From contig CAYODB010000001.1 of NCBI GenBank assembly GCA_964402495.1, forward strand, positions 687 through 58,038: a stretch of 57,352 nt of DNA. The letters are read 5' to 3'. The stretch comes from an uncultured Bordetella sp. GTDB lineage: Bacteria; Pseudomonadota; Gammaproteobacteria; Burkholderiales; JACQAP01. This document shows positions 1-18,246 of the stretch, piece by piece. Below the pieces are notes generated by a model. That model was not told the origin of the DNA. It searched no databases and was given only the letters and a program-made list of their open reading frames with translations. The position numbers and the translations under genes were made by a program. Numbering within the stretch: the first letter of the stretch is position 1; the number at the start of each line of letters is the position of its first letter.

Positions 1-399
1 GTCCCACTGTGCTTCGACCGGGCCCGCCAGCCACTCGAATACATCCGCCGCCACGATGGTCGGCGCCCAGCCGAGAGCGCGAAAGTTTTCCATCGTTCGT
101 GCTTCAACTGCGCCCTGGCGATCGAGCAGCGTTACGGCAACATCGGACCAGCGTGCCGCACGCCGGTGCGCCAGACGCAGCATCAGCGATCCGTCGCCCG
201 CGCCAAGCTCGAGAATCGCGCGCGGGGATGATCGCGCGGCCGCGCGATCGAGCGCGCTCAGCAGGATCGACAGGGTGCCCATCGCGCGATGCAGGCGCCG
301 CAGATCGTTTCGGGAGCGCCGGGCCGCCGGATCGTCGGCAGCCAGCGCATCGAGCACCTCCGGCTGCACGCACCGCGGCAAAGACTGGTCGATGCGCAT
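1..399 (-). CDS. class I SAM-dependent methyltransferase (3' end cut by window edge)
   Basis: Own minus-strand translation from ATG at 399: MRIDQSLPRCVQPEVLDALAADDPAARRSRNDLRRLHRAMGTLSILLSALDRAAARSSPRAILELGAGDGSLMLRLA... ELGAGDG looks like the SAM-binding glycine loop. It starts 16 nt after the PKS stop, so it is co-operonic. Absent from the ORF track because it runs off the edge. Confidence 0.6.
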   Translation of the reverse strand, partial: MRIDQSLPRCVQPEVLDALAADDPAARRSRNDLRRLHRAMGTLSILLSALDRAAARSSPRAILELGAGDGSLMLRLAHRRAARWSDVAVTLLDRQGAVEARTMENFRALGWAPTIVAADVFEWLAGPVEAQWD

Positions 400-414
400 C
401 GGTCGAGCCAGTGG

Positions 415-1491
415 TCACGCTACCTTGAGCAACGCGCCGTGGCAACTGAACCCGGCACCGAAGGAGGACATCCACCACCATCCCGGCGCGGCATTGTCGC
501 GCAGTGCAGCTTGCAGCACGTAATAGACGAAGGCGCTGCTCATGTTGCCGAACTGGCGCAGCACGGCGGTGCTGTAGCGAAAATGACCCTCGGGTAGCTG
601 GAATTTTTTCTGCAAGGCACCGAGCACGTCCCGGCCGCCGGCATGCATGATCCAGGCGGCGATGTCGGCCGGCGCAAGGCCAGCCGTTTCCAACACGCGG
701 TCGAGGACCTGATGCGCATGCTCGGCCGCCAGCCGCGGGACCGGACGCGTCAGGACATTGCGCAGCATGCCGTCGCGGGTTTCGAATTGCAGCGCCTTGC
801 GCTCGCCGGGATTGGTCAGAGAACCGAATGCTTTCCATTCCATGCGCCGGCGATTGGAATCGGGACGCTGCGACAGTACAGCGGCACCCGCTCCGTCGCC
901 GAACAGGCAGGCGCTGATCAACACGCCGGGATCGTTATCGAGGTACATCGCGGCGCTGCTCACTTCCACGCACACTGCCAGCACATGACCGCAGGATCCG
1001 TCCGCCAGCAGCGCCGCCGCCACCCGCCAGTTGGGCAACGCTGCGGCACAGCCCTGCCCGACCAGATCGAATGCCAGCACATCGGATCGCAACCCCAGAC
1101 GTTCGATGACATGGCTGGTGAGGCCAGGACAGAGGTAACCGGTGCATGTGCTGACCACGACGCCATCGATCTCGTGCGCCTGCAGGCCGGCATCCTCGAG
1201 TGCTGCGCGCCCGGCATCGGCGGCCAATGCGGGCGCATGGACCAGAAACCGTTCGTGCAACACGTTGGGATTGATCTGGAAAACTTCGTTCAGTCCATCC
1301 AGCGCCAGAGTACGCGACTCGATGCCGTTGTCCCTGGTCAGCACTGTTTCTGCAATCAGGTGCGCACGGTGGTCCAGCTTGCGGAACCATTCGGAACTCT
1401 TGAACGCCTCCCAGCACTGCGCTTTGGTAAAGCGATGCGGCGGATTGGCAGTGCCTAGTCCATTGACGAACATCCGGGATCCTGTCTGCAT
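415..1491 (-). CDS. type III polyketide synthase (chalcone/stilbene synthase family)
   Basis: 358-aa ORF with a thiolase-fold type III PKS pattern: VVSTCTGYLCPG active-site Cys region, FGDGAGAAVL, WIMHAGGRDVL, GNMSSAFVYYVL, FGAGFSCHGALL. Confidence 0.9.
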   Translation of the reverse strand: MQTGSRMFVNGLGTANPPHRFTKAQCWEAFKSSEWFRKLDHRAHLIAETVLTRDNGIESRTLALDGLNEVFQINPNVLHERFLVHAPALAADAGRAALEDAGLQAHEIDGVVVSTCTGYLCPGLTSHVIERLGLRSDVLAFDLVGQGCAAALPNWRVAAALLADGSCGHVLAVCVEVSSAAMYLDNDPGVLISACLFGDGAGAAVLSQRPDSNRRRMEWKAFGSLTNPGERKALQFETRDGMLRNVLTRPVPRLAAEHAHQVLDRVLETAGLAPADIAAWIMHAGGRDVLGALQKKFQLPEGHFRYSTAVLRQFGNMSSAFVYYVLQAALRDNAAPGWWWMSSFGAGFSCHGALLKVA

Positions 1492-1612
1492 AACCGTCTT
1501 TGCATGGCAATCGCCGACGACCGCGTTACCGGCAAAACCGACCTATGCCGATCGTAACACGGGATGTTACGAGGTTAATTTCAATCGCGGCGCGACCCGC
1601 AAGGCACCAGGC

Positions 1613-1693
1613 ATGCGCATAGAGTTGATCTGGCTGACGGGCCGGCTGATGCGCGACTTCAAAACGATTGCCGGCTTCCGCTGGGACAATGGG
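1613..1693 (+). mobile_element. remnant of an IS1182/IS5-type transposase N-terminal (DUF772-like) region
   Basis: The tail of ORF 1142..1726 reads MRIELIWLTGRLMRDFKTIAGFRWDNG. This matches the conserved ELMWLxGRLxPDxKTIADFRKDNG motif of IS1182-family transposases as I recall it. It is short, with no intact gene around it. Confidence 0.45.
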
Positions 1694-1817
1694 TGGCGAT
1701 CCTTGGCCGAGAAGAAGCGGGAGTAGATCGTTCGGCAGTTTTCGCCCCCGGCCCGGGTTTGATAAATCGGGGGCGGTGACTCCTGGCCACCGCCCCCAAA
1801 CGTCTCGCCAGTTTACG

Positions 1818-2270
1818 TTACTTGGGAAGGATCACCCGGTCAATCACGTGGATCACACCGTTCGATGCGCCGACGTCCGCCGCAACGATGTTCGACTGGC
1901 GAGCGTTCTGGTCCGTGATTCGCAGCTTCTTGTCGATCGTGAGCGTTTCGCCCTGCAACGTCGGGACCGGCATGTCGAATGGAATCTGACTGGACAGCAC
2001 CTGGCCAGGAAGGACGTGATACGTCAGCACCTTTACGAGCAGTGGTGTGTTCGCGAGCAGTTGGGCCTGGGTAAGGTGAAGCTCCGACAGCAGCGCCGCG
2101 AAAGCCTCGTTTGTCGGGGCAAATACGGTGAAAGGTCCGGGACCCGAGAGGGCATTTGCCAGTCCTGCAGCCTGTACCGCAGCCACGAGGATACTGAAAT
2201 CCGGATTGCCTTGCGCCACCTGGACGATGTTCTGGTCCGTCGGCAGGACGACATTGTCTATCAGGTGCAC
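1818..2270 (-). CDS. fasciclin (FAS1) domain protein; intact C-terminal domain of a disrupted two-domain gene
   Basis: 150 aa with FAS1 hallmarks: [37 protein letters not shown] start and no signal peptide. The same frame stays open upstream and encodes the end of another FAS1 domain. Confidence 0.7.
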   Translation of the reverse strand: MHLIDNVVLPTDQNIVQVAQGNPDFSILVAAVQAAGLANALSGPGPFTVFAPTNEAFAALLSELHLTQAQLLANTPLLVKVLTYHVLPGQVLSSQIPFDMPVPTLQGETLTIDKKLRITDQNARQSNIVAADVGASNGVIHVIDRVILPK

Positions 2271-2617
2271 GACGCCATTGCGGGCATAGAGGTTCTTGAC
2301 AACGATTTTTGCCGTGCGACCACGCGCGTCGGTGATTGAGATCGTCCGCTTTTCGGACTGCTCGGAGACGCTGAACTTGAGGCGCTGTCTGTTGGCACGA
2401 GTACCGTGTGCGGCTGTGCTCCAGCCATCGCGGGCACTGCGCTCGAGGCGTTCACGACAGAGGCCATCTTCGTCGTGTTCGGCGATGTGTTGATGATCGT
2501 GGCAACCGTGCCTGACACCGGTGCCCCATCTGCGGTGGAATTGCCACCTCCCCCGCCGCAGGCGGAAACGAGCGCCACAGCAGCCAGGACGGTCAACGCT
2601 TTAATTGAACGGTACAT
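2261..2617 (-). pseudogene. N-terminal fragment (lipoprotein signal plus start of a FAS1 domain) of the disrupted tandem-fasciclin gene
   Basis: MYRSIKALTVLAAVALVSACGGGG is a signal peptide with a lipobox. It is followed by ...AQPHTVLVPTD, then out-of-frame junk. The 1818..2617 span is 800 nt, which is not a multiple of 3. Confidence 0.5.
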
Positions 2618-2770
2618 CGGTCTATCTCCTCATTTCGTTGAAAAAAAGGGCGATTAACGGTTTAATGAAACCAATGGGACATTTTTTGCTACTTTGGCGG
2701 TGAGCTGTCCCATGCCTAGCCTGATATTTAGCGTACACATCTTGAACTGAGTAGTATATATTTATTACTT

Positions 2771-3388
2771 ATGAGTCTATTTAGCCGTTTGTCTGTAAAG
2801 GAAAAGCAACAACAGGTGCGCGAGGATGCGCTGCTCGACGCCGCCCATTCCTTGCTCGCGAGCAAGGGGTACGAGCATATGACCGTGGACGATGTGGCAT
2901 CCGAGGCAGGGGTTGCCAAGGCCAGCGTCTACAAGCATTTCGTCTCGAAGGAGGCGTTGGCGGCGGCCGTTATGATTCGGCTGCTGGATCGCGCCCTGGA
3001 GTACATACGTGCCCTGCCGCCGGAGCAGCAGGCGCTCGACAAGCTCCAGTCTGTGCTGCGTTGGGCCCTGGAGCTGCGGCTGCACGGCGGCCTGCCCTTG
3101 CTGCCCTCCAGCAGCGAGGCGGTGCGTCAGGGACTGCTGTCGAACCGCCAGTACGTGACTCGCATCCTCGCATTGAATGAGGCCATGCTGCGGTTGGTCG
3201 ACGAGGCAAAGGCTGGTGGCCACATCTCGGCCGCGCTGCCCTCAGAGGTCATGCTTTTCAGCCTTTACGCGCGGACCTGCGACCCCAGCGTTGACTACAT
3301 AAAAATGACTGGCCATTACACCGACTCTGAAATCGTGAACTATCTGGTGACGATCGGCGTCACGGGATTAATAACCCCTCCAAAATAG
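2771..3388 (+). CDS. TetR/AcrR family transcriptional regulator
   Basis: N-terminal HTH: YEHMTVDDVASEAGVAKASVYKHFVSKEAL. 205 aa. AT-rich divergent promoter region upstream. Confidence 0.9.
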   Translation: MSLFSRLSVKEKQQQVREDALLDAAHSLLASKGYEHMTVDDVASEAGVAKASVYKHFVSKEALAAAVMIRLLDRALEYIRALPPEQQALDKLQSVLRWALELRLHGGLPLLPSSSEAVRQGLLSNRQYVTRILALNEAMLRLVDEAKAGGHISAALPSEVMLFSLYARTCDPSVDYIKMTGHYTDSEIVNYLVTIGVTGLITPPK

Positions 3389-3641
3389 CGTGCGCGAGCT
3401 AAAGATAAAGATCAGGAAGCCAGCTCCTCTTGGAGTCGCAAACGCGACGAGCAGAACGCCCCCCAAGAAAGGTGTTCAAGCGGGGGGCGCCAACAGCGAA
3501 TGGGAAAGCGGGATAGGGCCAAAGTTGGAATATCAGTGCGCCATCCCGCGGGCGACGATTGCCACAATCGGCAAGTAGCGCGCGACGGCGACGCCAGTGC
3601 TTGCCGGTTCCGGCAACAACACCGGCGTCGCCGCTGCGGGC

Positions 3642-4145
3642 TTACTTCGGTATCAGGACTGCATCAATTACGTGAATGACGCCATTTGAGGCCATGACGT
3701 CCGTCTTGATCACCTTCGCCTGATCAACCATCACACTGCCGCCGCTTACCGAGATCGTCAGAGCGCTGCCCTCGACGGTCTTCACTGCTCCGGGCTTGAC
3801 GTCCGCAGCGAGCACCTTCCCGGCGACGACGTGGTAGGTAAGAATCTTCGTTAGCATGGCCTTATCCGCCAGGATCGCGTCAAGCTTTTCCTTCGGAATC
3901 TTGGCAAACGCCTCGTCGGTCGGGGCAAAAACGGTAAACGGCCCCTTGCCTTTCAAAGTATCGACCAAGCCCGCCTGCTTCACTGCGGCGACCAGAGTAT
4001 TGAACGAACCCGCGGCCACCGCGGTGTCGACGATGTCCTTGCTCCCGGACATGGGGGCAGCGGGTTCACCCTTCATACCAGCACAACCGGACAGCGCCAG
4101 GAAAGTCAGTGCGACAAGGCTGCCGGCGAATGTAAATCTTTGCAT
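3642..4145 (-). CDS. fasciclin (FAS1) domain lipoprotein
   Basis: Start moved to [23 protein letters not shown] (signal plus lipobox) with a GGAG RBS just upstream. FAS1 motifs [34 protein letters not shown]. Confidence 0.85.
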
Positions 4146-4435
4146 TATTTCTCCTATCTCTCGATGTGATTCAATAGTATTGTCAGTCGCCGAATGACGT
4201 CGCTTGGCAGGCGGTGATGTTCTCGTAAATACCATCACGTTTGTACTGTATACTGCATAGTTCATGTTGTCTACTATATATTCCTCTTCGATATATCGGT
4301 CGGTAGCCGGAATGGGTTGGCAAGCCGCTGGTTGCGCAGGCCGTGCTTAAATCGAGGGGTCGAGCTTGGCCACCCTCTTTTTTATCGTCAAAAACGATAG
4401 TGTGAATCGCGCCGGCTTTCTTGGATCCTGAGCGG

Positions 4436-4576
4436 CACCTCTGGAGCAGATCGGGGAACAGATGGAAACAGGCACCGGATCAACAGATCTCGCAGACCGA
4501 TCCGGACGCCCGCTCCATGGCCACCAGTGGCCGGGGCACGGGGATTGTTGGCTACAACGTACAGACGGCAGTGGAC
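4436..4576 (+). mobile_element. remnant of an IS1182/IS5-type transposase (central DDE-region fragment, frameshifted and truncated)
   Basis: The start of ORF 4421..5491 reads QQISQTDPDARSMATSGRGTGIVGYNVQTAVD, the TDPDARxM...GYNxQxAVD motif typical of IS1182-family transposases. Similarity ends about 4576, and LEQIGEQME lies in another frame upstream. Confidence 0.5.
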
Positions 4577-4630
4577 GGCACCGCCCGATCCGCGTCTGTC
4601 GAAGCTGCCGCGGTGAAATTGTTGAGGAGT

Positions 4631-5533
4631 TCAGACAGCCCGATTGGCGCGCTCGGCGATCGCCAGCACGCGATACATCGAACGCACGACCGGCAACTCG
4701 ATCAACTCCCCATCCACAACGACCAGGCCGGTACTGTCCTGCTCGAACGCCGCGCAGACCTTGCGCGCCTTTTCGATGGTCTTCGCATCCGGCGTGAAAG
4801 CAGCATGGATGATCGAGATCTGGTTCGGATGGATCGAGGCCTTGCCGGTGAATCCCAGTTTCGCGCAACCCATAGCCTCCTTGCGCAAACCCTCCGGATC
4901 GTCGAGGCTCAGATAAGGCACATCCAGCAGATCGATGCCCGCAGAAGCGGCGGCATGCACCAGGCGCGACCGCGTGTAGAGCAACGGTTCCCAAGCCTTT
5001 TCGCAGCGCAGGTCGGCGGACATGTCCACCGCACCCAGTATCATGGAGTCTATGCGCTGCGACGATCTTGCAATCTCGACCGCCCGCTCCAGGCCCTGAT
5101 TGGTTTCGATGATCACGCAGAACCGGATTGTCCTTGCAGGTCCGGACGAAAGCAGCGTCTCGATCAACTGCACCTCCTCAGGGGACTTGATCTTGGGGAT
5201 CATGATCGCCGGCGGCGGCGCGTCGGACTCGATGATCGCCGTGAGATCCTTGAGTCCGTCCAGCGTGGACAGGCCGTTGATGCGCACCATCTGCTCGACA
5301 TGAGGATGGGTTTTGTTTTTGAACAAAGGCAAGGTCAGCGCCCTGCCCTCGTCCTTGCGGCTGCGCGCCACCGCATCTTCCATGTCTATGCAGACGATGT
5401 CGGCACCGGAATTCAGCGCCTTGGCGTACATGTCCGGCCGCAGGCCGGGAACGAACAGCAGGCTGCGGCGCGGACGAATGGCGTTATTTGATTGCATCAT
5501 GGATAACAGGCTGAAACGGATGAAAGACGGCAT
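4631..5533 (-). CDS. HpcH/HpaI aldolase / citrate lyase beta-subunit (CitE)-like lyase
   Basis: RSLLFVPGLRPDMYAKALNSGADIVCIDMEDAV, IETNQGLE and GFTGKASIHPNQI are CitE/malyl-CoA-lyase family motifs. Start at 5533 (GAGAGG RBS), alternatively 5500. Confidence 0.85.
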   Translation of the reverse strand: MPSFIRFSLLSMMQSNNAIRPRRSLLFVPGLRPDMYAKALNSGADIVCIDMEDAVARSRKDEGRALTLPLFKNKTHPHVEQMVRINGLSTLDGLKDLTAIIESDAPPPAIMIPKIKSPEEVQLIETLLSSGPARTIRFCVIIETNQGLERAVEIARSSQRIDSMILGAVDMSADLRCEKAWEPLLYTRSRLVHAAASAGIDLLDVPYLSLDDPEGLRKEAMGCAKLGFTGKASIHPNQISIIHAAFTPDAKTIEKARKVCAAFEQDSTGLVVVDGELIELPVVRSMYRVLAIAERANRAV

Positions 5534-5591
5534 GCTAGCCTCTCGTTGCTTTTTCGCCAAGCATTGGCGGCTGACGCAAGAACGGGTACAT

Positions 5592-5769
5592 CTCAACGCA
5601 GAGACGCAGAAGACGCAGAGAAATGTAGAGGAGGATGAACTTAACCAGGTCCGTGGTTCCGTGAAAATTGACCACCCGCCTCGCTGATACCCGATGGATG
5701 ATCAAATCTTCGATTTTCTCCGCGACCTCTTTTGCTCTTCCTCTGCGCACTTTGCGTCCCCGGCTTGAG
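5592..5769. repeat. inverted-repeat intergenic element, copy 1 (imperfect arms)
   Basis: Left arm ctcaacgcagagacgcagaagacgcagagaaatg (5592-5625). The right arm (5735-5769) reverse-complements to ctcaagccggggacgcaaagtgcgcagaggaagag. Same arm family as 16029-16200 and 17761-17803. Confidence 0.5.
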
Positions 5770-5771
5770 GT

Positions 5772-6362
5772 TTAGATGCGCACGACGGGTTGCCGGTCGC
5801 GAGTGGCAACGACCACGTAGCGCAGTGCGCCGCCTGGCACGGGACTGTCGAACGGAAAGCAGGTCACCAGCGTGATCCGGTCGTCGCCGGCATTGAGCAA
5901 CACGCGCATGTCCTTGCGATGGACAACTTCCTACGCAGCAACCAGGTAGCGTACGGTGCTGCCGTTCGCTGCCTGCACCAGCAGCGCATCGCCCTTGCGC
6001 AGTTCGCGCAGGAACGCGAAATGGGTATCGCGATGTCCGCTTACCACTGAGTTGCCCTGCCCGCCGGGCAAAGGCGTGCCATCGACATGGCCGGGGCCGA
6101 ACGCCAGCGTCCTGCCGCTGGCGCCCGACAACACCATCATCGATTCCCGCTGGCGCGGCGCCTCGATTCGCGCCACCGGATAAGTGTCGGCCCAGGGCCA
6201 GGGCTCCACCGGGGCCCCGGTGGAGCGCGCCTGATCCCAGGCCGATGCGATCAGGCGCTGTGCGAGCCAGGCCTTGGTGTAGATATAGGCAGCTTCGCCA
6301 GCCTGCCATGCAGAGACGGCAACCAGTCCGACTACGAGCATCGCCCTGACCCCCGCTTTCAT
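5772..6362 (-). pseudogene. class GN (proteobacterial dedicated) sortase interrupted by an in-frame TAG
   Basis: ORF 5931..6362 ends ...VRYLVAA at a TAG (5931-5933). The same frame continues EVVHRKDMRVLLNAGDDRITLVTCFPFDSPVPGGALRYVVVATRDRQPVVRI to a TAA at 5772. The catalytic His (VVSGHRDTHF) is upstream of the stop; the Cys (TLVTC, 5859-5861) and Arg (LRYVV) are downstream. Confidence 0.8.
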
Positions 6363-8536
6363 GAAACTCTCCGCACCCTGCAGAGCATGAAGCCCAGAGC
6401 CGCGGCGAGCATGGCCAGGATCAGGTGCAGCGCAGCCGGTGTGGCCGTCTTGGGCAGCGAGCCGAAATACCCGGCATGGCTGCCGCCGTCCGGCAGGTTG
6501 GCCGGCACCGACTGGGTATCGAGGTCTTCGCCTTCGGGACGCACCGGCGTGACATCCACCGCGACCAGGCTGGTGTAGCGCGTCACGATGTGATGCTTCA
6601 GGGCAATCTCGACGACTTGCTGGCGCACCTCTTCGCGGTCCGCGCCTTCGTTGATGGAATCCATGAGCGCATCGACCTTCCGCCGCGCCCAGATCACGCC
6701 CATACCTTTGCCGTCATGGGTAGCCGAAAGATCGAATTCGGCCACCCAGGATTCCCCGCCGGCCTGGCCGCGCACGCTCACCTTGCCCGTCAGCGGGCCT
6801 TGCACGAGTGCGCTCAGGACGATCGGCTCACCCAAATATAAATCGGGAAGCTTCTCGGGCGAGCTTTGCGCATTGAGGTCGGCGGGCCACTCGACGGCGA
6901 TGTCCGAGAGTACCGGATGCTCGAGCTTGCCGAACAGCTCGGCCATTTTTTCGCCGACTTCGCCGACGTCGCCGATGTAGGTGAAGCTGCCGCGGCCCAG
7001 TTGCGCAGCCTTGGTCATGAAATGGCCATTGGGCGCGGAACCGATGCCGACGGTGAACAGCCGGCTGCGGCCCAGCTTGCGCTGGATGAGCTTGAACAAC
7101 TGGTCCTCGTTGCCGATGCTGCCGTCAGTCATGAAAATGACCTGGCGCAGGGTGCCCTCCTTCGCCGGCGATTCGAGCGCGGCCTGCATGGCAGGAACCA
7201 TTTCCGTACCGCCGGTCGCCCGCAGCTTGTCGACGTAGCGGCGTGCAGCCACGAGATTTTTGACGCCGGCTTCGCGCGAGGACGGGAACAGCAGCTCGGT
7301 CGACGAATTGAACTGGATGACGTTGAAGCGGTCTTCCGGCGCGAGCTGGCCGAGCGCCATGCGCAGCGCCGACTTGGCCTGGACGATCGACGTCCCTTCC
7401 ATTGAGCCGGAGGTATCGATCACGTAAATGACTTCGCGCGGCAGCCGCTTTTCATCAGCTTTCACGCCAAACGGCGGAAACAGGGTCAGCAGCAAATGGG
7501 ATTCGCCGGCAGCGGACTCGAGGAACAACGCGCCGCGCGGTTGCGCGCCGGGCAGCGGATTCCACACCAATTCGAAATCCCGGTCGGCGGAGAACGGACC
7601 GACCGCCAGCGACACTTCATAACGATTGTCGCCCCGCTTCTCCACCTTCACCGCGTGATAACGGCTCTTGACTTCATTTACCGGGAAACCCGCATCGAGC
7701 TCGACATGGATGCTGACGGGATTGCGCAGGGGCTCGCCTTCGGCCAGCACCTTCGGGGTAATACGTGAGGCGTCCTTGACCTTGTCCGTATCGGGCGACC
7801 AGCCGTGGCCGGACGGCTTGCCTTCCGACTGCGGCGAGCCGGGGATATAGCGCGGCGCGACGACGGTGGGAAAGCGCAGGCTGACGGAACCGTCCTGGTA
7901 ACGCAGGGTCTGCTGGTATTCGATCTCGACGGTGAGGGTCTGGCCCGGTCCGAGGTTGGCCACGCTGCTGGTGAAAATGTTCGGCCGTTCCTGTTCGATC
8001 AGGGAAGCCAGGCTGCCGCGTTCGCGCGCCGCTTCGTACTCGGCGCGCGCCTGGGCGCGCTCGCGGATCTGGCCTTCGATGAGGTGGTCGCCGACATGCA
8101 TCTGCAGGCGGTCCACCGCGGCATTCTCCGGAAGCGGGAATACATAGATGCCTTCGACCCAGTCCGGGGAGTCGTTGCGGAACCGCTGCGAAACCACCGC
8201 GCGCGCCACGGTGCCGCTTACGGTGAACTTCACGTCAGTGGACAGCACCGGGGAGCGCACGTACTCGCCGCCCGGGCGCGCCCGCATCAGGAAACTGCCG
8301 CTGGTGTGGTCGCCGGGACGATCCGAAGGCGATCCGTGAGCGCTCCCCGCCTCCGGCGCGGAGGAAGCTTCGGCCGGCGGCGCCACCAGGGTCAGGCCCA
8401 GGATGGTCAGCGCCAGCAGGATGGCGAATCCGGTGCCGGCTAAGGCCGCGGTCACCACAAACCGGACGACGTCGCGGGCCATCGAGAACCCTGACGCCTC
8501 CGCCCCGATCAAACTGCTATTCCAGAACATTTTCAT
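6359..8536 (-). CDS. sortase target protein with VIT and von Willebrand factor A domains
   Basis: Start at MKMFWNS (GGAGGA RBS). N-terminal TM/signal segment. VIYVIDTSGSM is a vWA MIDAS motif. The C-terminus GSLPKTATPAALHLILAMLAAALGFMLCRVRRVS is an LPxTG-like signal plus TM plus basic tail. Its stop overlaps the sortase ATG (ATGA). Confidence 0.9.
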   Translation of the reverse strand: MKMFWNSSLIGAEASGFSMARDVVRFVVTAALAGTGFAILLALTILGLTLVAPPAEASSAPEAGSAHGSPSDRPGDHTSGSFLMRARPGGEYVRSPVLSTDVKFTVSGTVARAVVSQRFRNDSPDWVEGIYVFPLPENAAVDRLQMHVGDHLIEGQIRERAQARAEYEAARERGSLASLIEQERPNIFTSSVANLGPGQTLTVEIEYQQTLRYQDGSVSLRFPTVVAPRYIPGSPQSEGKPSGHGWSPDTDKVKDASRITPKVLAEGEPLRNPVSIHVELDAGFPVNEVKSRYHAVKVEKRGDNRYEVSLAVGPFSADRDFELVWNPLPGAQPRGALFLESAAGESHLLLTLFPPFGVKADEKRLPREVIYVIDTSGSMEGTSIVQAKSALRMALGQLAPEDRFNVIQFNSSTELLFPSSREAGVKNLVAARRYVDKLRATGGTEMVPAMQAALESPAKEGTLRQVIFMTDGSIGNEDQLFKLIQRKLGRSRLFTVGIGSAPNGHFMTKAAQLGRGSFTYIGDVGEVGEKMAELFGKLEHPVLSDIAVEWPADLNAQSSPEKLPDLYLGEPIVLSALVQGPLTGKVSVRGQAGGESWVAEFDLSATHDGKGMGVIWARRKVDALMDSINEGADREEVRQQVVEIALKHHIVTRYTSLVAVDVTPVRPEGEDLDTQSVPANLPDGGSHAGYFGSLPKTATPAALHLILAMLAAALGFMLCRVRRVS

Positions 8537-8729
8537 GACTTCCTCCACGAGAGCTCTGTGCGGGCTGCACGGAGGCCATTGAAGCCGCCATGCAGGGCGA
8601 AAGCGGGCCGAAGAAAGGGAAATGCGCGGGCAAAAAGTGGCGGAAAAATGGCTTTTCCCACCGGGGCGCGCGCCATCACAGTGCTCGGGTATAGTGCTTC
8701 GCGACACTCAGCAGGCAGGTGGAGAAGGC

Positions 8730-9425
8730 ATGGCCAGACGCATTGCAATCATCGAAGACGATTCCGCGATCCGCGAAAACTACGCGGACGTGCTGCGCCG
8801 CCAGGGCTACGAGGTGGCGACCTTTGCCGACCGCCCGCAAGCGCTGAAGGCGATGCCCACTCGCCTGCCGGATCTGGCGTTGATCGACATCGGCCTGGCG
8901 GACGAGGTGGAAGGCGGCTTCACGCTGTGCCGCGAGTTGCGCGCCCTGTCGCCGAAACTGCCGATCATTTTCCTGACGGCGCACGACGGGGATCTCGATA
9001 CCGTTTCCGGACTGCGCATGGGCGCGGACGACTACCTGACCAAGGACATCAGCCTGCCGCACCTGCTGGCCCGCATCGCCGCGCTGTTCCGGCGCATCGA
9101 AGTCATGGGTGCGCCGCCGGCCGCGGAGGACGTGCTGGAGCGGGGCCGGCTGCGCCTCAACATCAAGCGCATGCAGGCGCACTGGGCGGGCCGGCCCATC
9201 GAACTCACGCTCACCGAATTCTGGATCGTGCATGCGCTCGCCAAGTATCCGGGGCACGTCAAGGACCGCGACGCGCTGATGCGCGACGCCAGCCTGACGG
9301 TGGACGACAGCACCATCACTTCCCACGTCAAGCGCATCCGGCGCAAATTCATCACGCTCGACCCCGAGTTCAATTCGATCCAGAGCATCTATGGGCTGGG
9401 GTATCGCTGGCATGCCGACCGCTGA
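8730..9425 (+). CDS. OmpR-family response regulator (sortase-system associated)
   Basis: MARRIAIIEDD..., receiver domain plus winged-helix C-terminus (YGLGYRW). Divergent from the sortase operon. Confidence 0.9.
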   Translation: MARRIAIIEDDSAIRENYADVLRRQGYEVATFADRPQALKAMPTRLPDLALIDIGLADEVEGGFTLCRELRALSPKLPIIFLTAHDGDLDTVSGLRMGADDYLTKDISLPHLLARIAALFRRIEVMGAPPAAEDVLERGRLRLNIKRMQAHWAGRPIELTLTEFWIVHALAKYPGHVKDRDALMRDASLTVDDSTITSHVKRIRRKFITLDPEFNSIQSIYGLGYRWHADR

Positions 9426-11571
9426 GCGGCGCGCCGGCTTGCGGGCGGGACTGCGGCTCAAGCTGTTGCTGGCGGCCAGCATCCTGCTGCTGATCCCGCT
9501 GCTCGGTTTTCTCTACGTCCGCGAACTCGAACACCTGCTGCTGAAGGTGCAGGAACAGGGCGTTATTTCGACAGCGCGCGCGGTGGGCACGGCGCTCAAC
9601 GACCGGCCGAGCCTGTTCCGCAGCGGCGAGGTCTATCCTTTCGCCCTGGCGCAGGAAAGCGACCTCAAGATCGACAACCTGCCCGCCGCCATTGCCGTCG
9701 ACGGCCAGACCGAAGACTGGGACCGGGAACCCGTGTCGCCGCATTCGGTTGGCGCCGGCGTGGGCAGCCCGGAGTCGCGCGCCTTCTCCGCGCGCTACCG
9801 CATCGGCCGCTACGGCAATTCGATCTACGCGCTGTTCGAGGTTTCGGATCCCAAAGTCGTGCTGCGCGACCCCGATCTGGATGGGCTGCAGACTTCCGAC
9901 CGGCTCGAGATCGCCGCAGTGACGCCGGACGACGAGTTCCTGCGTTTCTCTCTGGACGCGCGTGGAAGCGGTCGCGCATCAGTCTATTTGCTGATGTCCG
10001 ACGACGAACAGGTCCCGGATACCCGCATCTACGGCGTGTTCCGCCTGGTGCCGGGCGGTTACCTGGTCGAACTGCGCCTGCCCCGTTCACTGGTGGGACC
10101 GCGGCTGGGTTTCTCCATCGCGAACGTCGATGACCCGGTTGCCCGCACGCCCGCCGGTTCGATCGGCACCTCGGACACGGCCAGCAAGGAAGCGCTCGGG
10201 GCCGTGCTGGTGCCTTCGCCCGAAGTCAGCGAACTGGTGAGCCGCCTGGGGCGCGCTCGTGCACGCATCTGGGTGCTCGACGTGAATCATCGGGTGATAG
10301 CACAGGCCGGCACCTTGCACGCGCCACCCATCGAGGCCGATCCGGACCGCAGTCCTGTCATGCGTTTCTGGGAAGCGGCGGCAGACATCGTGGTGCGGCC
10401 GATCCTGCGGCTGGCGATGTCCGAACCCAACGAGGATTTCCAGGACATCGCTCCCGGCACTTATCGCCTGGAAGGCCGCGAGATCGAGGAAGCGCTTGCC
10501 GGAGAAACCGGGACGCGCAGGCGGCTCACGCGCGATTCCCGCGCGGTCGTGCTGTCGGCAGCGCATCCGGTCTGGCAGGAAGACAAGGTGGTGGGCGCGG
10601 TGCTCGTGGAGGAAACCACCAACGACGTGCTGGCGCTGCGCAACCGCGCGTTCGAGAAACTCTTCGCCGCCCTGCTCGTGGTTTACCTGGGCGGCACGGC
10701 CACGCTGCTGGTGTTCGCCACGCGGCTTTCGCTGCGAATCCGGCGGCTGCGCGACGAGGCGGAGAAGTCGATCGATTCACACGGCCGCGTGCTCGGCACC
10801 GTCAGCGGCTCGGAGGACGGCGATGAACTGGGTGACCTGTCGCGCAGCTTCGCCGACATCCTGCGCCGGCTGCAGCAGTACACCGGTTACCTCGAAGCGC
10901 TCGCCGGGCGGCTCTCGCATGAATTGCGCACGCCGGTCGCCGTGGTACGTTCGTCCCTGGACAACCTCAAACAGGTCGAGCTGCCGGAAGATGCGCGCAT
11001 TTATCTGCAGCGCGCCGAACAAGGTCTGTCCAGGCTCACCACGATATTCGCGCGCATGAGTGAAGCCACCCGCCTTGAACAGTCCCTGTCATCGGTGGAA
11101 CGCGAACGCTTCGACCTTGCGCAGGTCGTGCAGGGCTGCGTCGAAGGTTACCGTCTCGCGCATCCCGACCGTAACTTCGTGGTGGAAACGGAACCTGTTT
11201 CCTTCCCCGTGCACGGCGCGCCGGACCTGATCGCGCAAATGCTGGACAAGCTTGCCGCCAATGCGGTCGAATTCAGCCCGGCCGGCAGCCGCATTCGCTT
11301 CGGGTTGCGGCGCGAGGGTTCGCGTGCGCGGCTGTCTGTAAGCAACGAGGGCCCGCCGCTGCCCGCCGACATGCAGGACCGGCTGTTCGAATCCATGATT
11401 TCCGTACGCGACAAGAAATCGCAGGAGGACCCGCACCTGGGCCTGGGCCTGTACATCGTGCGCCTGATCGCCGAGTTTCACGGTGCCAGGGCAAGTGCGC
11501 GCAACAAGGATGATGATTCCGGCGTCGAAATCCGCATCGATTTCCCGCTGGCTGAAAATACTATGGCCTAG
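9391..11571 (+). CDS. sensor histidine kinase (sortase-system associated)
   Basis: N-terminal TM, large periplasmic domain, second TM plus HAMP-like segment, H-box LSHELRTP, and HATPase motifs (NAVEF, GLGLYIV). The start could be 9391 or 9412; both overlap the regulator stop. Confidence 0.85.
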   Translation: MGWGIAGMPTAERRAGLRAGLRLKLLLAASILLLIPLLGFLYVRELEHLLLKVQEQGVISTARAVGTALNDRPSLFRSGEVYPFALAQESDLKIDNLPAAIAVDGQTEDWDREPVSPHSVGAGVGSPESRAFSARYRIGRYGNSIYALFEVSDPKVVLRDPDLDGLQTSDRLEIAAVTPDDEFLRFSLDARGSGRASVYLLMSDDEQVPDTRIYGVFRLVPGGYLVELRLPRSLVGPRLGFSIANVDDPVARTPAGSIGTSDTASKEALGAVLVPSPEVSELVSRLGRARARIWVLDVNHRVIAQAGTLHAPPIEADPDRSPVMRFWEAAADIVVRPILRLAMSEPNEDFQDIAPGTYRLEGREIEEALAGETGTRRRLTRDSRAVVLSAAHPVWQEDKVVGAVLVEETTNDVLALRNRAFEKLFAALLVVYLGGTATLLVFATRLSLRIRRLRDEAEKSIDSHGRVLGTVSGSEDGDELGDLSRSFADILRRLQQYTGYLEALAGRLSHELRTPVAVVRSSLDNLKQVELPEDARIYLQRAEQGLSRLTTIFARMSEATRLEQSLSSVERERFDLAQVVQGCVEGYRLAHPDRNFVVETEPVSFPVHGAPDLIAQMLDKLAANAVEFSPAGSRIRFGLRREGSRARLSVSNEGPPLPADMQDRLFESMISVRDKKSQEDPHLGLGLYIVRLIAEFHGARASARNKDDDSGVEIRIDFPLAENTMA

Positions 11572-11575
11572 CACG

Positions 11576-13099
11576 CTATTCGCCGACAGCGATGGCGTCG
11601 TTGGACCCGCGGGGCTGTTTCGTCTTGCCGATGAACAGCAGCAGCGGAAGCGCCGCAAGCGCGACCATGGCGAACATCCAGAAGTCGCTGGTGAAACCGA
11701 GAATCGCCGCCTGCCTGCTGATCTCCTCTTCCAGCCGCATCAGGGATTCCGGGCTGTCCATGCTCCACCCCTGGGGCGTCTGCGACTGCAGTGCCCTGCT
11801 GTACGGCGTTACATGTTCGGTCATTTGCGCGTGCATCATGTTGCTGGTGCGGACGTAGAGCGCGAGCGAACCGGATACGCCAATGCTTGCACCGACGCTC
11901 CGCACCAGGTTGTAAACCGCCGTGGCTTCCGTGCGGCGATGCGGCTCCAGCGACGGGAAGGCGATGACCTGGATCGGCACCAGGATGATGCCGGCGCCGA
12001 TGCCCTGCAGGAAATTGGTCCAGACCAGCGGCCAAACGCCGACGTCGCCCGTCCAGTTCGACATTTCCCAGCTCGAGAAGGCCAGGCACAGCAGGCCGAA
12101 AGCGATCGCGGCGCGCGGATCCACGCGTCCCGTCGTGCGTCCGCCGATGATCATCGCGACGAACAGGCCGAGGCCGCGGGGCGCCTGCAGAAGGCCGATG
12201 GCATCAATGGAATAACCGCGTACGTTGTCGAGGAACGTGGGCATCAACACCATCGGCGGCGTGGTCACGAATCCATAGAGGAACGCGAATACCAGGCCGA
12301 GGAAGAAATTGCGCTGCGCGAACAGGCGCGGATCCAGGAAGGGCTGCTTGGCGGTCAGGCAGTGCACATTGAACATATAAAGGCCCAGCACCGCCAGGCA
12401 GGCTTCCGTGATGATTTCCCAGGACTCGAACCAGTCGAGCTGCCCGCCTCGATCGAGCATCAGCTGCAACGCTCCGATACCGAGCGACAGGCTGAGGAAA
12501 CCGAACCAGTCGAGGGGATGCTTCGGTTCGCGTTTCGTCTCCGGCAGGAAAGCCGCGGAGCCGGCCAGCGCAAGCAGCCCGAAAGGAACGTTGATGTAGA
12601 AAATGTAGCGCCAGCTCAGGTACTCCGTGACATAGCCACCGACCGTGGGGCCGACGAAAGACCCCATTACCGCGGCCATGCCCCAAAGAGCCATGGCCTT
12701 GCCCTGCTCTTCCGGGGGATACGCGTCCAGGATGATGGCGTGGGAAAGCGGAATCAGGAACGCCCCGCCCATGCCCTGGAGCACACGCGAAAATACCTCG
12801 AACGCGAGCGAGTCCGCCGCTCCGCACATCACCGACGCCACCATGAAAACCAGCAACGCCCACAGGAATACGCGCTTGCGGCCGAAGCGCCGGCTCAGCC
12901 AGCCTGCGGATGGAATCGAAATGGCCGAAGCCACGATATACGAGGTTATGACCCACGCTATCTGGTCAGGCGCCGCCGAGAAAGCGCCCTGCATGTGCGG
13001 CAGGGCTACGGCGGCAATGGTCCAGTCGACCGAATAGAGGAAACTCGCCAGCCCGACCGAGGCGGTGATCAGGGCCGGATGTTTCGACGCGCCGGTCAC
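11576..13099 (-). CDS. MFS efflux transporter, DHA2/EmrB family (14-TMS type)
   Basis: 507 aa with LPHMQGAF, ITSYIVASAISIPSAGWLSRRFGRKRVF and GMGGAFLIPL, typical of EmrB/QacA-type pumps. The start abuts the HlyD gene's stop. Confidence 0.9.
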   Translation of the reverse strand: MTGASKHPALITASVGLASFLYSVDWTIAAVALPHMQGAFSAAPDQIAWVITSYIVASAISIPSAGWLSRRFGRKRVFLWALLVFMVASVMCGAADSLAFEVFSRVLQGMGGAFLIPLSHAIILDAYPPEEQGKAMALWGMAAVMGSFVGPTVGGYVTEYLSWRYIFYINVPFGLLALAGSAAFLPETKREPKHPLDWFGFLSLSLGIGALQLMLDRGGQLDWFESWEIITEACLAVLGLYMFNVHCLTAKQPFLDPRLFAQRNFFLGLVFAFLYGFVTTPPMVLMPTFLDNVRGYSIDAIGLLQAPRGLGLFVAMIIGGRTTGRVDPRAAIAFGLLCLAFSSWEMSNWTGDVGVWPLVWTNFLQGIGAGIILVPIQVIAFPSLEPHRRTEATAVYNLVRSVGASIGVSGSLALYVRTSNMMHAQMTEHVTPYSRALQSQTPQGWSMDSPESLMRLEEEISRQAAILGFTSDFWMFAMVALAALPLLLFIGKTKQPRGSNDAIAVGE

Positions 13100-13100
13100 G

Positions 13101-14228
13101 TCAGCGGCGGTTGCCCGCTATCGCGGAAGCCGGTTCAAGGAAGCGCGGCAGCCAGCCGCTGTCCACGAGTTTTTGCACGCTGCGCGGCAGTCCGCGCGGC
13201 CGGCCGGTATCGACGGCAACGCTTACCGTCATACCCGCACGCAATTTTGGCTGTCCCGGCGGTTGTTCGACCTTTATGCGCACCGACACGCGCTGTACGA
13301 CCTTGACCCAGTTGCCAGTGGCGTTCTGCGGCGGCAGTACGGCGAACTCCGCGCCGGTGGCCGCGGCAATGGTATCGACCGCCGCCGGCCACTCGTGATC
13401 CGGATAGGCATCCGCCACGACGACCGCACGCTGGCCGGCCGTCATGTGCGTGAGCTGCGTTTCCTTGTAGTTGGCCTCTATCCAGAGCGGACCGCTTTCG
13501 ATCAGGCTGAACATCGGCGCGCCCTTCTCCACGAATTCGCCGACCCGCAGCTTCATGTTGGTAACAACGCCGGCGACCGGCGCCTTGATCAGCGCACGTG
13601 ACAGGTCGAGCATCGCGGCATCGTAGGCCGCGCGCGCTTCCACGTAGCGCGGCAAGCGTTCCGCCGGCAGGCCTGGATCGCCGGACAATCCGGCCAGGAC
13701 CCGGTTTGTCTTTTCGCGAACGCTGTCGAGCCTGCGCTTCGCCGCTTCCAGGTTGTGATGGGCCTCGTCGTACGTATCGCCCCGGGTCATGCCTTTTTCC
13801 TTGAGGCGTTCCTGGCGCTCGAACTGGCGGGCGAGGAATTCGATGCGCTCGCGCGCCTCCGCCGCTTCCTGCAGGGTGGCCCGATAATCAGCGCGGAGCT
13901 GCTGGACGTCGGAGCGCACGACTTCCATCTGCGCCCGCGCGCCGGTCACGGCGATCTCGTACGGCTCGGGATCGAGCCGGAACAACACGGCACCGGCTTC
14001 CACCTCCTGGTTGTCCTGCACCAGCGTTTCGATGACCCGTCCGGTGACGGCCGAACTGATGGCGACGATGTTCGCCTTGACGTAGGCGTTGTCGGTTTCA
14101 ACTTCCTGTCCGCCGGTGGAATAGATGTACAGCCCGCCCAATACGGCAATCAGCGGCAGCACCACGAGCAGGACGATGCGCACCGCCCGGTGCACGACAA
14201 AAATGGCCCTGTTTTCCGGTTGGGACAT
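13101..14228 (-). CDS. HlyD/EmrA-family membrane fusion protein
   Basis: N-terminal TM, TDNAYVKANIVAISSAVTGRV, a coiled-coil middle region and a barrel C-terminus. Sits between the MarR and EmrB-like genes. Confidence 0.9.
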   Translation of the reverse strand: MSQPENRAIFVVHRAVRIVLLVVLPLIAVLGGLYIYSTGGQEVETDNAYVKANIVAISSAVTGRVIETLVQDNQEVEAGAVLFRLDPEPYEIAVTGARAQMEVVRSDVQQLRADYRATLQEAAEARERIEFLARQFERQERLKEKGMTRGDTYDEAHHNLEAAKRRLDSVREKTNRVLAGLSGDPGLPAERLPRYVEARAAYDAAMLDLSRALIKAPVAGVVTNMKLRVGEFVEKGAPMFSLIESGPLWIEANYKETQLTHMTAGQRAVVVADAYPDHEWPAAVDTIAAATGAEFAVLPPQNATGNWVKVVQRVSVRIKVEQPPGQPKLRAGMTVSVAVDTGRPRGLPRSVQKLVDSGWLPRFLEPASAIAGNRR

Positions 14229-14229
14229 G

Positions 14230-14709
14230 TCAGCGTTTGCGCTTCCCGGCGCCGCCGTTTTCCGGACGCGTGCCGTCGAGGCGCGTGAGGTTGGTCTTTA
14301 TCGCCAGCAAGGCGTCCACGAATTGTTCTTGCTGGACGGCCGACAGCCCTGACAATGCCTCGCGGCGCACATCCGCGGCCGCCGTTCGCATGGTCTTGAT
14401 CGCCGGCTCGACTTCCTCCGTCAGGAACACTCGTTTGGCGCGCCGGTCGCCGGCGTGGCCTTCGCGCCGGATCCAGCCTTTTTGTTCCATGCGGTCAAGC
14501 AGCCGGCCCAGCGTGGCCTTCTTCACTTCCAGGATGTCGGCGAGTTCGGACTGGGTGACGCCGTCGTTGCGGAACAGGTGGTTCAATACCCACCACTGCG
14601 AACGGGTGAGGCCGAGGGACTTCACCCTGCGATCGAAAGTGGTGCGCATCAGGCGCGCCACGTCGTTGAGGATGAAGCCGAAATTGCGGGAAAGGTCTTC
14701 GCGGAACAT
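14230..14709 (-). CDS. MarR family transcriptional regulator
   Basis: 159 aa with a winged HTH (LTRSQWWVLNHLFRNDGVTQSELADIL...LLDRMEQKGWIRR). First gene of the efflux operon. Confidence 0.9.
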   Translation of the reverse strand: MFREDLSRNFGFILNDVARLMRTTFDRRVKSLGLTRSQWWVLNHLFRNDGVTQSELADILEVKKATLGRLLDRMEQKGWIRREGHAGDRRAKRVFLTEEVEPAIKTMRTAAADVRREALSGLSAVQQEQFVDALLAIKTNLTRLDGTRPENGGAGKRKR

Positions 14710-14806
14710 GGTGGGGATTTTACCCGCAATTGGTTGTCTAGCTTACTATATGCCAGGCTATCATCCGGGCTGCTAGAATCCACGTACATCGGGAGGAGCG
14801 ACAAAA

Positions 14807-16024: not shown

Positions 16025-16028
16025 GGAC

Positions 16029-16200
16029 AGCGCTCACCGCAGAGGACGCGGAGGACGCAGAGGAAATGAAAATGCGAGAAAATGGATTATGGGTAACACA
16101 CGAAATTGCAGATGTTGCGGGCGCTCCCTCCGTTCCGTCATTTTTTCCTTTAATGCTCCGTATTTCCTCTGCGTCCTCCGCGTCCTCTGCGGTGAGCGCT
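16029..16200. repeat. inverted-repeat intergenic element, copy 2 (perfect 39-bp arms)
   Basis: agcgctcaccgcagaggacgcggaggacgcagaggaaat (16029-16067) is the exact reverse complement of 16162-16200. The arms contain GAGGACGCR 9-mer reiterations around a 94-nt AT-richer core. Confidence 0.8.
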
Positions 16201-16220
16201 TGGATTTAAGGACTTAAGAT

Positions 16221-16541: not shown

Positions 16542-16542
16542 C

Positions 16543-17742: not shown

Positions 17743-17760
17743 GGTGCCTACACTTCTACA

Positions 17761-17803
17761 CCCAACGCAGAGGCGCGGAGAACGCAAAGGTCGCAGAGAA
17801 AGG
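17761..17803. repeat. solo arm of the same inverted-repeat family
   Basis: cccaacgcagaggcgcggagaacgcaaaggtcgcagagaaagg resembles the left arms at 5592 and 16029. No matching right arm was found downstream. Confidence 0.4.
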
Positions 17804-17947
17804 CAAACCAAGAAACCAGCCGTTATTTATTACCGATCACAGCCGCCAAGTTGATCCGCAATGCGATTGTGCGATTGGGCCAAGTCTTGAATCGCACCAA
17901 GGTCAGGCCCGATTTGACATGAGTATCCATTCGGATACAATTACTCC

Positions 17948-18217: not shown

Positions 18218-18246
18218 AAAATCCTCAGACAACTGGAGTTGAAACC

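What the first reader, a model, noticed from the sequence alone, without database searches (positions are those of the whole stretch)
5772..6362. Dedicated sortase split by an in-frame amber codon between catalytic His and Cys, in an otherwise intact four-gene system
- The four genes of the proteobacterial dedicated sortase system are all present at 5772-11571: a VIT/vWA target with an LPKTATP sorting signal, the sortase, an OmpR-type regulator and a histidine kinase.
- The sortase reading frame contains a TAG at 5931-5933.
- The same frame continues without a shift for 52 more codons. These encode the TLVTC catalytic cysteine (5859-5861) and the LRYVV arginine, ending at a TAA (5772).
- The 143-aa product upstream of the stop keeps the His (SGHRDTHF) but lacks the nucleophile.
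- Possible explanations: the sortase is freshly inactivated, leaving a 725-aa target stuck with an uncleaved sorting signal; the stop is read through or suppressed; or it is a sequencing or strain-level polymorphism.
- A single-base change from CAG, TGG, GAG, AAG, TAC, TAT, TTG or TCG would produce this stop.
Basis: seen in the sequence. Interest (0 to 1): 0.65.

Follow-up and report, generated by a model that had tools for sequence, protein, structure and literature searches.

The report
Sortase gene broken by stop codon
In one nearly clonal, uncultured betaproteobacterial strain from microbial mats, a single C-to-A change turned a serine codon of its dedicated Gram-negative sortase into a stop, most likely a recent, ordinary gene inactivation rather than a new mechanism.

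Summary
On the minus strand the class GN sortase frame (6362..5772) has a TAG at 5933..5931. Another 52 in-frame codons follow, encoding TLVTC (Cys168) and LRY (Arg181). The read-through protein matches TIGR03784 end to end, and the target, regulator and kinase genes are intact.

The stop is not an artefact. The exact 143-aa product is called on 21 contigs from JGI and Logan assemblies. Thirteen runs were laid on the site: ten carry the TAG allele, three carry a relative with TCG, and none shows both. The four closest intact orthologues and the nearest relative haplotype (96.9% identical) all have TCG (Ser), so the change is one C-to-A transversion.

TAG is a normal stop in this organism: it ends 7 of 46 coding-like ORFs, including this system's own kinase. 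None of 82 related loci has an internal stop.

dN/dS against intact relatives is 0.10-0.12, as between intact genes, so the lesion is recent.

The stop falls inside strand beta-6, so the product loses the strands that carry Cys168 and Arg181.

Best reading: a recent loss-of-function allele carried by one near-clonal strain. Low-level read-through cannot be excluded, but nothing supports it. Interest is low.

The parts
5931..6362 (-). 5' part of the class GN sortase gene: 143 codons plus the TAG. It encodes the N-terminal membrane-anchor helix, the PWPWAD motif and the catalytic His110 (SGHRDTHF). Its ATG overlaps the target's TGA (ATGA).
5931..5933 (-). Premature amber codon at codon 144. The TAG derives from TCG (Ser) by a C-to-A transversion on the coding strand (+ strand position 5932: T here, G in relatives).
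5772..5930 (-). 3' remnant of the sortase gene: 52 in-frame codons plus TAA. It encodes the end of beta-6, helix 149-157, beta-7 with Cys168 (TLVTC) and beta-8 with Arg181 (LRY). It is no longer translated as part of the sortase.
6359..8536 (-). Sortase target gene, 725 aa, intact. It has VIT and vWA domains and a C-terminal LPKTATP signal, followed by a hydrophobic helix and an RVRRVS tail.
8730..9425 (+). Dedicated-sortase-system response regulator (OmpR/CreB-like), intact. The likely start is Met37 of the 8622-9425 ORF, which gives the 231 aa called in relatives.
9391..11571 (+). Dedicated-sortase-system histidine kinase (CreC-like), intact. It ends in TAG, which shows that TAG is used as a stop in this very system.

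Best explanation
This is a recent loss-of-function allele of the class GN (Gram-negative, dedicated) sortase gene.

Shown:
- In one near-clonal, uncultured betaproteobacterial (Burkholderiales-like) strain, codon 144 changed from TCG (Ser) to TAG by a single C-to-A transversion.
- The ribosome should stop there, because TAG is a normal stop in this organism.
- The 143-aa product keeps the membrane anchor and His110. It lacks the end of strand beta-6, the following helix, beta-7 with the nucleophile Cys168 and beta-8 with Arg181.

Inferred:
- The product cannot close the sortase barrel or catalyse transpeptidation.
- The 725-aa VIT/vWA target is still made and exported, but its LPKTATP signal is not cleaved. 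By analogy with sortase-null Gram-positive mutants, it should stay tethered to the inner membrane by its C-terminal helix.

The sortase is the last gene of the target-sortase pair, so no downstream gene is affected. The strain is abundant in many samples, so the loss is tolerated.
For: - Real and reproducible: Logan contigs of X1-X9 are identical across the site, and contigs of X10 and X12 also carry the window base there, at depths of about 6-57. The exact 143-aa ORF is on 21 JGI and Logan contigs, all 99.98-100% identical to the window.
- Derived state: L001, L002, L085 and L083 have TCG at codon 144. The nearest haplotype, in X13-X16 (100 differences over 3186 bp), has G at + strand 5932, which gives TCG.
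- Standard code: 7 of 46 coding-like ORFs end in TAG, including the kinase of this system.
- Exceptional for the family: 0 of 82 related loci have an internal stop, and the listed orthologues are almost all about 196 aa and full length.
- Catalytic residues lie 3' of the stop. H110, H114 and R181 are invariant and C168 is present in 84 of 85 related loci. The alignment to 2LN7 matches SGHRDT, TLVTC and RY. In the model, strand 136-148 contains codon 144, and strands 162-168 and 180-188 are lost.
- Recent: omega against intact relatives is 0.10-0.12, compared with 0.07-0.17 between intact genes, and the 3' remnant gives 0.04-0.05.
- Weak hint of relaxation on the window's own branch: 5 non-synonymous to 5 synonymous unique changes, compared with 6 to 22 pooled for three intact relatives (Fisher P=0.12). 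K53E hits a column that is K or R in 89% of relatives.
Against: - There is no direct evidence of the protein product, because no RNA runs were found and no proteomics is available.
- The 3' remnant is undamaged. This is expected for a recent lesion, but it would also be expected if the full-length protein were still made.
- Column 144 tolerates at least ten different residues, so a read-through product would probably work.
- Only contig consensus could be examined, not raw reads, so a minority TCG allele in the same samples cannot be excluded.
- Only 57 kb of the genome is visible, so a suppressor tRNA or a second sortase elsewhere cannot be excluded.
- The fate of the uncleaved target is inferred from Gram-positive systems. 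This class has no experimental characterisation in the literature I could search.
Confidence: 0.8

Rival explanations
1. The TAG is partly read through, by near-cognate decoding or a suppressor tRNA encoded elsewhere. Some full-length, active sortase is still made and the system still works at a reduced level.
For: Column 144 is highly variable (A/T/R/S/I/M/L/V/H/Q), so almost any inserted residue should be tolerated. The 3' remnant and the other three genes are intact. An enzyme with a single substrate may need few molecules.
Against: - TAG ends 7 of 46 coding-like ORFs here, including the system's own kinase, so efficient suppression would be costly.
- There is no tRNA in the window.
- The 96 nt from the stop onward fold worse than shuffled sequence (z=+1.44).
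- The local sequence is the same as in intact relatives apart from the mutation, so nothing has evolved to promote read-through.
- The intact remnant is equally explained by a recent lesion.
Confidence: 0.1
2. The loss is adaptive rather than neutral. Inactivating the sortase, and so removing or relocating the vWA surface protein, was selected in this strain, for example to escape a phage or grazer or to change adhesion. The target gene is now diversifying or decaying.
For: The TAG allele is carried by an abundant strain in every mat sample examined and in an estuary sample from another study. Six of the nine between-sample SNPs in window 1-20000 lie in the 2.2-kb target gene (binomial P=1e-4), and three of them are non-synonymous: P88L, D436G and P678L.
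Against: - The strain is nearly clonal (2-4 SNPs per 15-20 kb), so the allele may simply have hitch-hiked.
- Synonymous SNPs are enriched in the target as well (3 of 6). That points to local recombination or mutation rather than selection.
- There are only nine SNPs, all read from consensus contigs.
- No parallel independent sortase knock-outs were seen in 82 related loci, apart from one Cys-to-Gly variant.
Confidence: 0.07
3. The stop is a sequencing or assembly artefact, or a minor variant that one assembler happened to pick.
For: Only consensus contigs could be inspected, not raw reads.
Against: Ten of the runs laid, assembled independently by Logan, and four separate JGI assemblies all give the same base, at depths up to about 57. 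No alternative contig carrying TCG appears in the TAG-bearing runs, even at a 90% similarity threshold.
Confidence: 0.01
4. The gene works as a two-piece (split) sortase. The 143-aa N-fragment and a C-fragment re-initiated at Met152 (ATG 5909..5907) associate non-covalently.
For: An ATG lies 8 codons after the stop, with AAGGA just upstream. A 45-aa ORF (5909..5772) is listed.
Against: - The AAGGA is only 1 nt from the ATG, which is too close for a Shine-Dalgarno site, and the same sequence is ordinary coding sequence (HRKDM) in intact relatives.
- The C-fragment has no signal or anchor, so it would stay in the cytoplasm while the N-fragment's domain lies beyond the membrane.
- The break is inside strand beta-6.
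Confidence: 0.02

Closest known systems
Proteobacterial dedicated sortase system (class GN sortase TIGR03784, target TIGR03788, regulator TIGR03787, kinase TIGR03785). [quoted passage not shown]
   Same: All four genes are present, in the usual arrangement: target and sortase overlapping by ATGA, with the regulator and kinase divergent. All score above the curated cut-offs. The target carries an LPXTG-type LPKTATP signal.
   Different: The sortase frame is interrupted at codon 144, so the enzyme as encoded lacks Cys168 and Arg181. None of 82 related loci shows this.
Class D sortase of Bacillus anthracis (PDB 2LN7), the nearest solved structure by sequence
   Same: It aligns over residues 62-186 (E=5e-15) with SGHRDT, TL(V/T)TC(F/Y)PFD and RY matched. 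The predicted fold has the same order of strands.
   Different: It comes from a Gram-positive bacterium, anchors proteins to peptidoglycan and has several substrates. The acceptor for class GN is unknown. Sequence similarity is well below the class D cut-off (82.7 bits against 165).
Sortase-null (srtA) mutants of Gram-positive bacteria (my own knowledge of the family)
   Same: They are a functional analogue of the predicted consequence: substrates keep their uncleaved sorting signal and remain membrane-associated instead of being transferred.
   Different: Those are laboratory knock-outs in monoderm cells. This is a natural allele in a diderm, where the compartment is the periplasm and the final destination of the target is not known.
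CreBC-CreD system of Enterobacteria
   Same: The regulator and kinase have CreB and CreC as their second-best NCBIfam hits. Relatives at 83-86% sortase identity carry a creD-family gene directly after the sortase.
   Different: The window and its closest intact relatives lack creD. The top hits are the sortase-system equivalogs, not CreBC.

Membership tests
Class GN sortase (TIGR03784) | Full-length match to the equivalog HMM above its curated cut-off | tested here: met
   The read-through translation scores 212.5 bits (cut-off 158.25) over profile positions 2-174 of 174. This holds only if the TAG is read as a sense position.
Class GN sortase (TIGR03784) | Catalytic His, Cys (TLxTC) and Arg encoded in one uninterrupted reading frame | tested here: not met
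   His110 lies 5' and Cys168 and Arg181 lie 3' of the in-frame TAG at 5933..5931. The locus is therefore a disrupted member (pseudogene) of the family, not a functional one.
Class GN sortase (TIGR03784) | N-terminal membrane anchor followed by a sortase beta-barrel | tested here: met
   The model of the 94%-identical orthologue P0001 (pLDDT 81, pTM 0.73) has helix 2-48 followed by the strands of the barrel. Pfam Sortase matches residues 66-188.
Class GN sortase (TIGR03784) | Transpeptidase or cleavage activity on the LPXTG-type signal of its target | not testable with these tools
   No experimental data exist for this class in the searchable literature. No RNA or protein data exist for this strain.
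Proteobacterial dedicated sortase system | A single adjacent VIT/vWA target with a C-terminal LPXTG-type signal (TIGR03788) | tested here: met
   766.4 bits (cut-off 551.65), with VIT and VWA Pfam domains. The C-terminus reads LPKTATP, then a hydrophobic stretch, then RVRRVS. The target's stop overlaps the sortase start.
Proteobacterial dedicated sortase system | Linked two-component pair (TIGR03787 regulator, TIGR03785 kinase) | tested here: met
   374 bits (cut-off 335.7) and 691.2 bits (cut-off 612.2), both full length and intact, lying divergently next to the target gene.
Programmed stop-codon read-through or recoding site | The stop codon is reassigned or suppressed genome-wide, or there is a conserved stimulatory context or structure | tested here: not met
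   TAG ends 7 of 46 ORFs. There is no tRNA in the window. The downstream fold has z=+1.44. The stop is absent from all relatives. A genome-wide search for a suppressor tRNA was not possible.

The most novel reading that the evidence does not exclude
The amber is not a dead end. The sortase is either still made at a low level by read-through, giving a natural 'leaky' dedicated sortase, or its loss was selected. In the second case the uncleaved, inner-membrane-tethered vWA protein takes on a different role or is now decaying, as hinted by the cluster of within-strain SNPs in the target gene.
Probability: 0.12. Interest if true: 0.4.

Novelty: new member of a known kind. Interest (0 to 1): 0.15.

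Why it matters
On its own this matters little: it is a single-base nonsense allele of a known gene family in one environmental strain. Two things give it modest value.

- It is a clean natural knock-out of the class GN sortase in an otherwise intact system, and near-isogenic relatives with the sense codon exist in public data. This sortase class has, as far as I could find, never been studied experimentally. Comparing the two could show what the sortase does to its vWA target in a diderm cell.
- It shows that the system is dispensable for an abundant mat strain.

For annotation, the locus should be labelled a sortase pseudogene. It should not be split into a 143-aa 'sortase' and a 45-aa hypothetical protein, which is how current gene calls have it.

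Tried and rejected
- RNA evidence: no RNA runs hold the locus, so expression, editing and read-through could not be examined.
- Raw reads: every run is available only as Logan contigs, so minor-allele frequency at the site could not be measured.
- creD deletion as a second sign of operon decay: rejected. creD follows the sortase in relatives at 83-86% identity, but it is also absent from L085 and L002, which have intact sortases. The loss therefore came before the amber.
- Relaxed selection on the window branch: suggestive only. Unique changes are 5 non-synonymous to 5 synonymous, compared with 6 to 22 in intact relatives (Fisher P=0.12). Since the split from the nearest haplotype the count is 3 to 2 (P=0.09 under omega 0.11).
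- D157N first looked like a hit on a conserved column, but across 85 loci that column is variable. Only K53E hits a broadly conserved position.
- Target-gene changes against the nearest haplotype: the polarisable window-derived changes are about as many non-synonymous as synonymous, which is not decisive.
- Promoter and terminator scan of 5400-6500: nothing found.
- Wider decay of the neighbourhood: not seen. The HpcH-like, fasciclin and TetR genes are intact.
- Literature: no experimental work on class GN sortases was found. A general search on nonsense alleles in metagenomes gave nothing specific.
- Species identity: the closest species-level genome has only 77% sortase identity, so the organism is placed only as an uncultured betaproteobacterium or Burkholderiales.

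Full report
**What is in the sequence.** On the minus strand an ORF starts at ATG 6362..6360, overlapping the TGA of the upstream gene (ATGA). It runs 143 codons to TAG 5933..5931. The same frame then continues for 52 codons to TAA 5774..5772 and encodes ...DDRITLVTCFPFDSPVPGGALRYVVVATRDRQPVVRI.

Read through the stop, the 196-aa protein matches the NCBIfam equivalog TIGR03784 (class GN sortase) over profile positions 2-174 of 174. The score is 212.5 bits against a cut-off of 158.25. It also matches Pfam Sortase over residues 66-188.

The neighbouring genes are:
- The 725-aa VIT/vWA target, 8536..6359 on the minus strand (TIGR03788, 766 bits). Its C-terminus reads LPKTATP, then a hydrophobic helix, then RVRRVS.
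- The response regulator (TIGR03787, 374 bits).
- The histidine kinase (TIGR03785, 691 bits).

All three are full length and above their cut-offs.

**Is the stop real?** The window is metagenomic. Twenty-two public runs hold at least part of the 1-kb stretch.
- Logan's independent assemblies of nine runs, eight microbial-mat runs (X1-X8) and an estuary run from a different study (X9), each contain a contig identical to the window across the site. Word depths are about 6-46.
- Two further mat runs also carry the window base there: a 491-bp X12 contig covering 5476-5966 with no differences, and a 12.6-kb X10 contig at depth 54 whose only three differences lie in the target gene.
- The exact 143-aa product is called on 21 contigs, including four JGI assemblies made with a different pipeline. 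These are 99.98-100% identical to the window.
- No alternative TCG-bearing contig appears in the TAG-bearing runs.

A sequencing or assembly error is excluded at the consensus level. Raw reads were not available, so minority alleles cannot be assessed.

**What was there before?** The four closest orthologues with DNA in hand (L001, L002, L085 and L083) encode sortases 83-94% identical to the window's, and all have TCG (Ser) at codon 144. A much closer haplotype in runs X13-X16 differs from the window at 100 sites over 3186 bp. It has G at + strand 5932, which again gives TCG. X19 shows the same.

The lesion is therefore one C-to-A transversion on the coding strand. Column 144 is Ser in the eleven closest proteins. 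Across 85 related loci it varies between A, T, R, S, I, M, L, V, H and Q.

**Is TAG a stop in this organism?** Yes. Of 46 coding-like long ORFs in the window, 34 end in TGA, 7 in TAG and 5 in TAA. The kinase of this same system is one of the TAG users. ARAGORN finds no tRNA in the window. The 96 nt from the stop onward fold less well than shuffled controls (z=+1.44). Apart from the mutated base, the local sequence matches that of intact relatives, so nothing looks evolved to promote read-through.

**Is it unusual for the family?** Among 80 species-representative genomes and two metagenome contigs carrying this sortase, none has an internal stop. Three apparent stops were alignments running past the natural C-terminus. 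Nearly all of the 120 best protein hits are about 196 aa and full length (179-313 aa among those with at least 90% query coverage). Sortases of this class do not naturally end at residue 143.

**What the truncation removes.** The alignment to the nearest solved structure (2LN7, a class D sortase, E=5e-15) lines up SGHRDT, TLVTC and RY. Across 85 related loci H110, H114 and R181 are invariant, and C168 is present in 84.

An AlphaFold model of the 94%-identical intact orthologue P0001 (pLDDT 81, pTM 0.73) gives these elements:
- an anchor helix, residues 2-48;
- strands 62-68, 73-79, 104-109 (next to His110), 126-131 and 136-148;
- a helix, residues 149-157;
- strand 162-168, which ends at Cys168;
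- strand 180-188, which carries Arg181.

Codon 144 lies inside strand 136-148. The 143-aa product therefore loses the end of that strand, the helix and the two strands that carry the nucleophile and the arginine. It should be neither foldable as a barrel nor catalytically active. That last step is inference.

**How old is the lesion?** Nei-Gojobori omega for the window against intact relatives is 0.10-0.12, compared with 0.07-0.17 between intact pairs. For the 51 codons 3' of the stop it is 0.04-0.05, again like intact pairs. Almost all the divergence therefore accumulated under purifying selection, and the stop is recent.

On the window's own branch there is a weak excess of amino-acid changes:
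- Five non-synonymous to five synonymous unique changes, excluding the stop. Three intact relatives pooled give 6 to 22 (Fisher P=0.12).
- Since the split from the nearest haplotype, the derived changes are V11, K53E, S144* and D157N, with two synonymous changes. The probability of this under omega 0.11 is 0.09.
- K53E hits a column that is K or R in 89% of relatives. D157 is conserved only in the close clade.

This is compatible with early relaxation but does not demonstrate it.

**Population context.** Over window 1-20000 the TAG-bearing samples differ by only 2-4 SNPs each, so this is one near-clonal strain sampled repeatedly. The allele's ubiquity may therefore reflect clonal spread rather than repeated selection.

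Six of the nine between-sample SNPs fall in the 2.2-kb target gene (binomial P=1e-4). Three are non-synonymous (P88L, D436G, P678L) and three synonymous. Because synonymous changes are enriched too, relaxed selection alone does not explain the cluster. It remains an open side observation based on few sites from consensus contigs.

**Surroundings.** The sortase is the last gene of the target-sortase pair. A 238-bp spacer (5534-5771) that folds into one long hairpin follows it. Next comes an intact HpcH-like gene (5533..4631), which is 91% identical at protein level to that of L083. Fasciclin and TetR genes come after it.

Relatives at 83-86% sortase identity carry a creD-family gene between the sortase and the HpcH gene. 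The window lacks it, but so do L085 and L002, which have intact sortases. This is therefore an older difference and not part of the same decay. There is no other sign of gene breakage nearby.

**Mechanistic reading.**
- Shown: a real, derived amber codon in a standard-code organism that separates His110 from Cys168 and Arg181.
- Inferred: translation ends at codon 144 and the fragment is inactive.
- Inferred by analogy with sortase-null Gram-positive mutants (my own knowledge): the target is exported but keeps its sorting signal and stays tethered to the inner membrane by its C-terminal helix.

The acceptor and final location of the target in this class are unknown. The only literature I found describes the system in silico (PMC3237569).

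**Rivals.**
- Low-level read-through could supply some active enzyme, since column 144 tolerates many residues. Nothing supports it.
- Adaptive loss is possible but cannot be tested here.
- A split two-piece enzyme is implausible. The C-fragment would lack any export signal, the AAGGA before Met152 is 1 nt from the ATG and is ordinary coding sequence in relatives, and the break lies inside a strand.

**Verdict.** This is a genuine, recent nonsense allele (a pseudogene in the making) of a known dedicated sortase system in one environmental strain. It is an ordinary kind of event, of low general interest. It is useful mainly as a natural knock-out with near-isogenic sense-codon relatives, and as an annotation correction.

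Noticed in passing
window 6359-8536 (target gene), SNP positions 6504, 6521, 7230, 7763, 7906, 8274: Within the near-clonal TAG-bearing strain, 6 of the 9 between-sample SNPs found in window 1-20000 fall in the sortase-target gene (binomial P=1e-4). P88L, D436G and P678L are non-synonymous and three are synonymous. This could be a recombination or mutation hot spot, diversifying selection on a surface protein, or relaxation after the sortase loss.
   Followed up: partly
window 5534-5771; compare L083 2110-3480 and the P0008 contig: Relatives at 83-86% sortase identity carry a creD-family gene (PF06123) directly after the sortase. The window and its closest intact relatives (L085, L002) instead have a spacer of about 240 bp that folds as one long hairpin (-88.6 kcal/mol). 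The system's regulator and kinase have CreB and CreC as second-best hits. Together these suggest an unreported link between the dedicated sortase system and CreBCD-like modules.
   Followed up: partly
window 16029-16200: A perfect 39-nt inverted repeat (16029-16067 and 16162-16200, 94 nt apart) sits at about 4x the flanking contig depth, with many alternative contig joints. It is a multicopy MITE- or REP-like element. Contig joints also link position 5610, in the spacer after the sortase, to 16163.
   Followed up: partly
L008 2341-2880 (DATMZQ010000189.1, Burkholderiales MAG): The class GN sortase of this species-representative MAG has Gly in place of the catalytic Cys (LMTGYPFD) and PWPRAD in place of the invariant PWPWAD. 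It is either another inactive sortase or assembly errors.
   Followed up: no
alignment A1, proteins P0073 and P0096: Two full-length orthologues have Gln instead of His at the position aligned with the catalytic His110 (SGQRDTHF), while His114 is invariant. This raises the question of which His is essential in this class.
   Followed up: no
window 5772-5909 and 5931-6362; loci L086-L092: Public gene calls split the locus into a 143-aa 'Sortase' and a 43-45-aa unannotated ORF. The truncated protein is therefore in the databases as if it were a complete sortase.
   Followed up: yes
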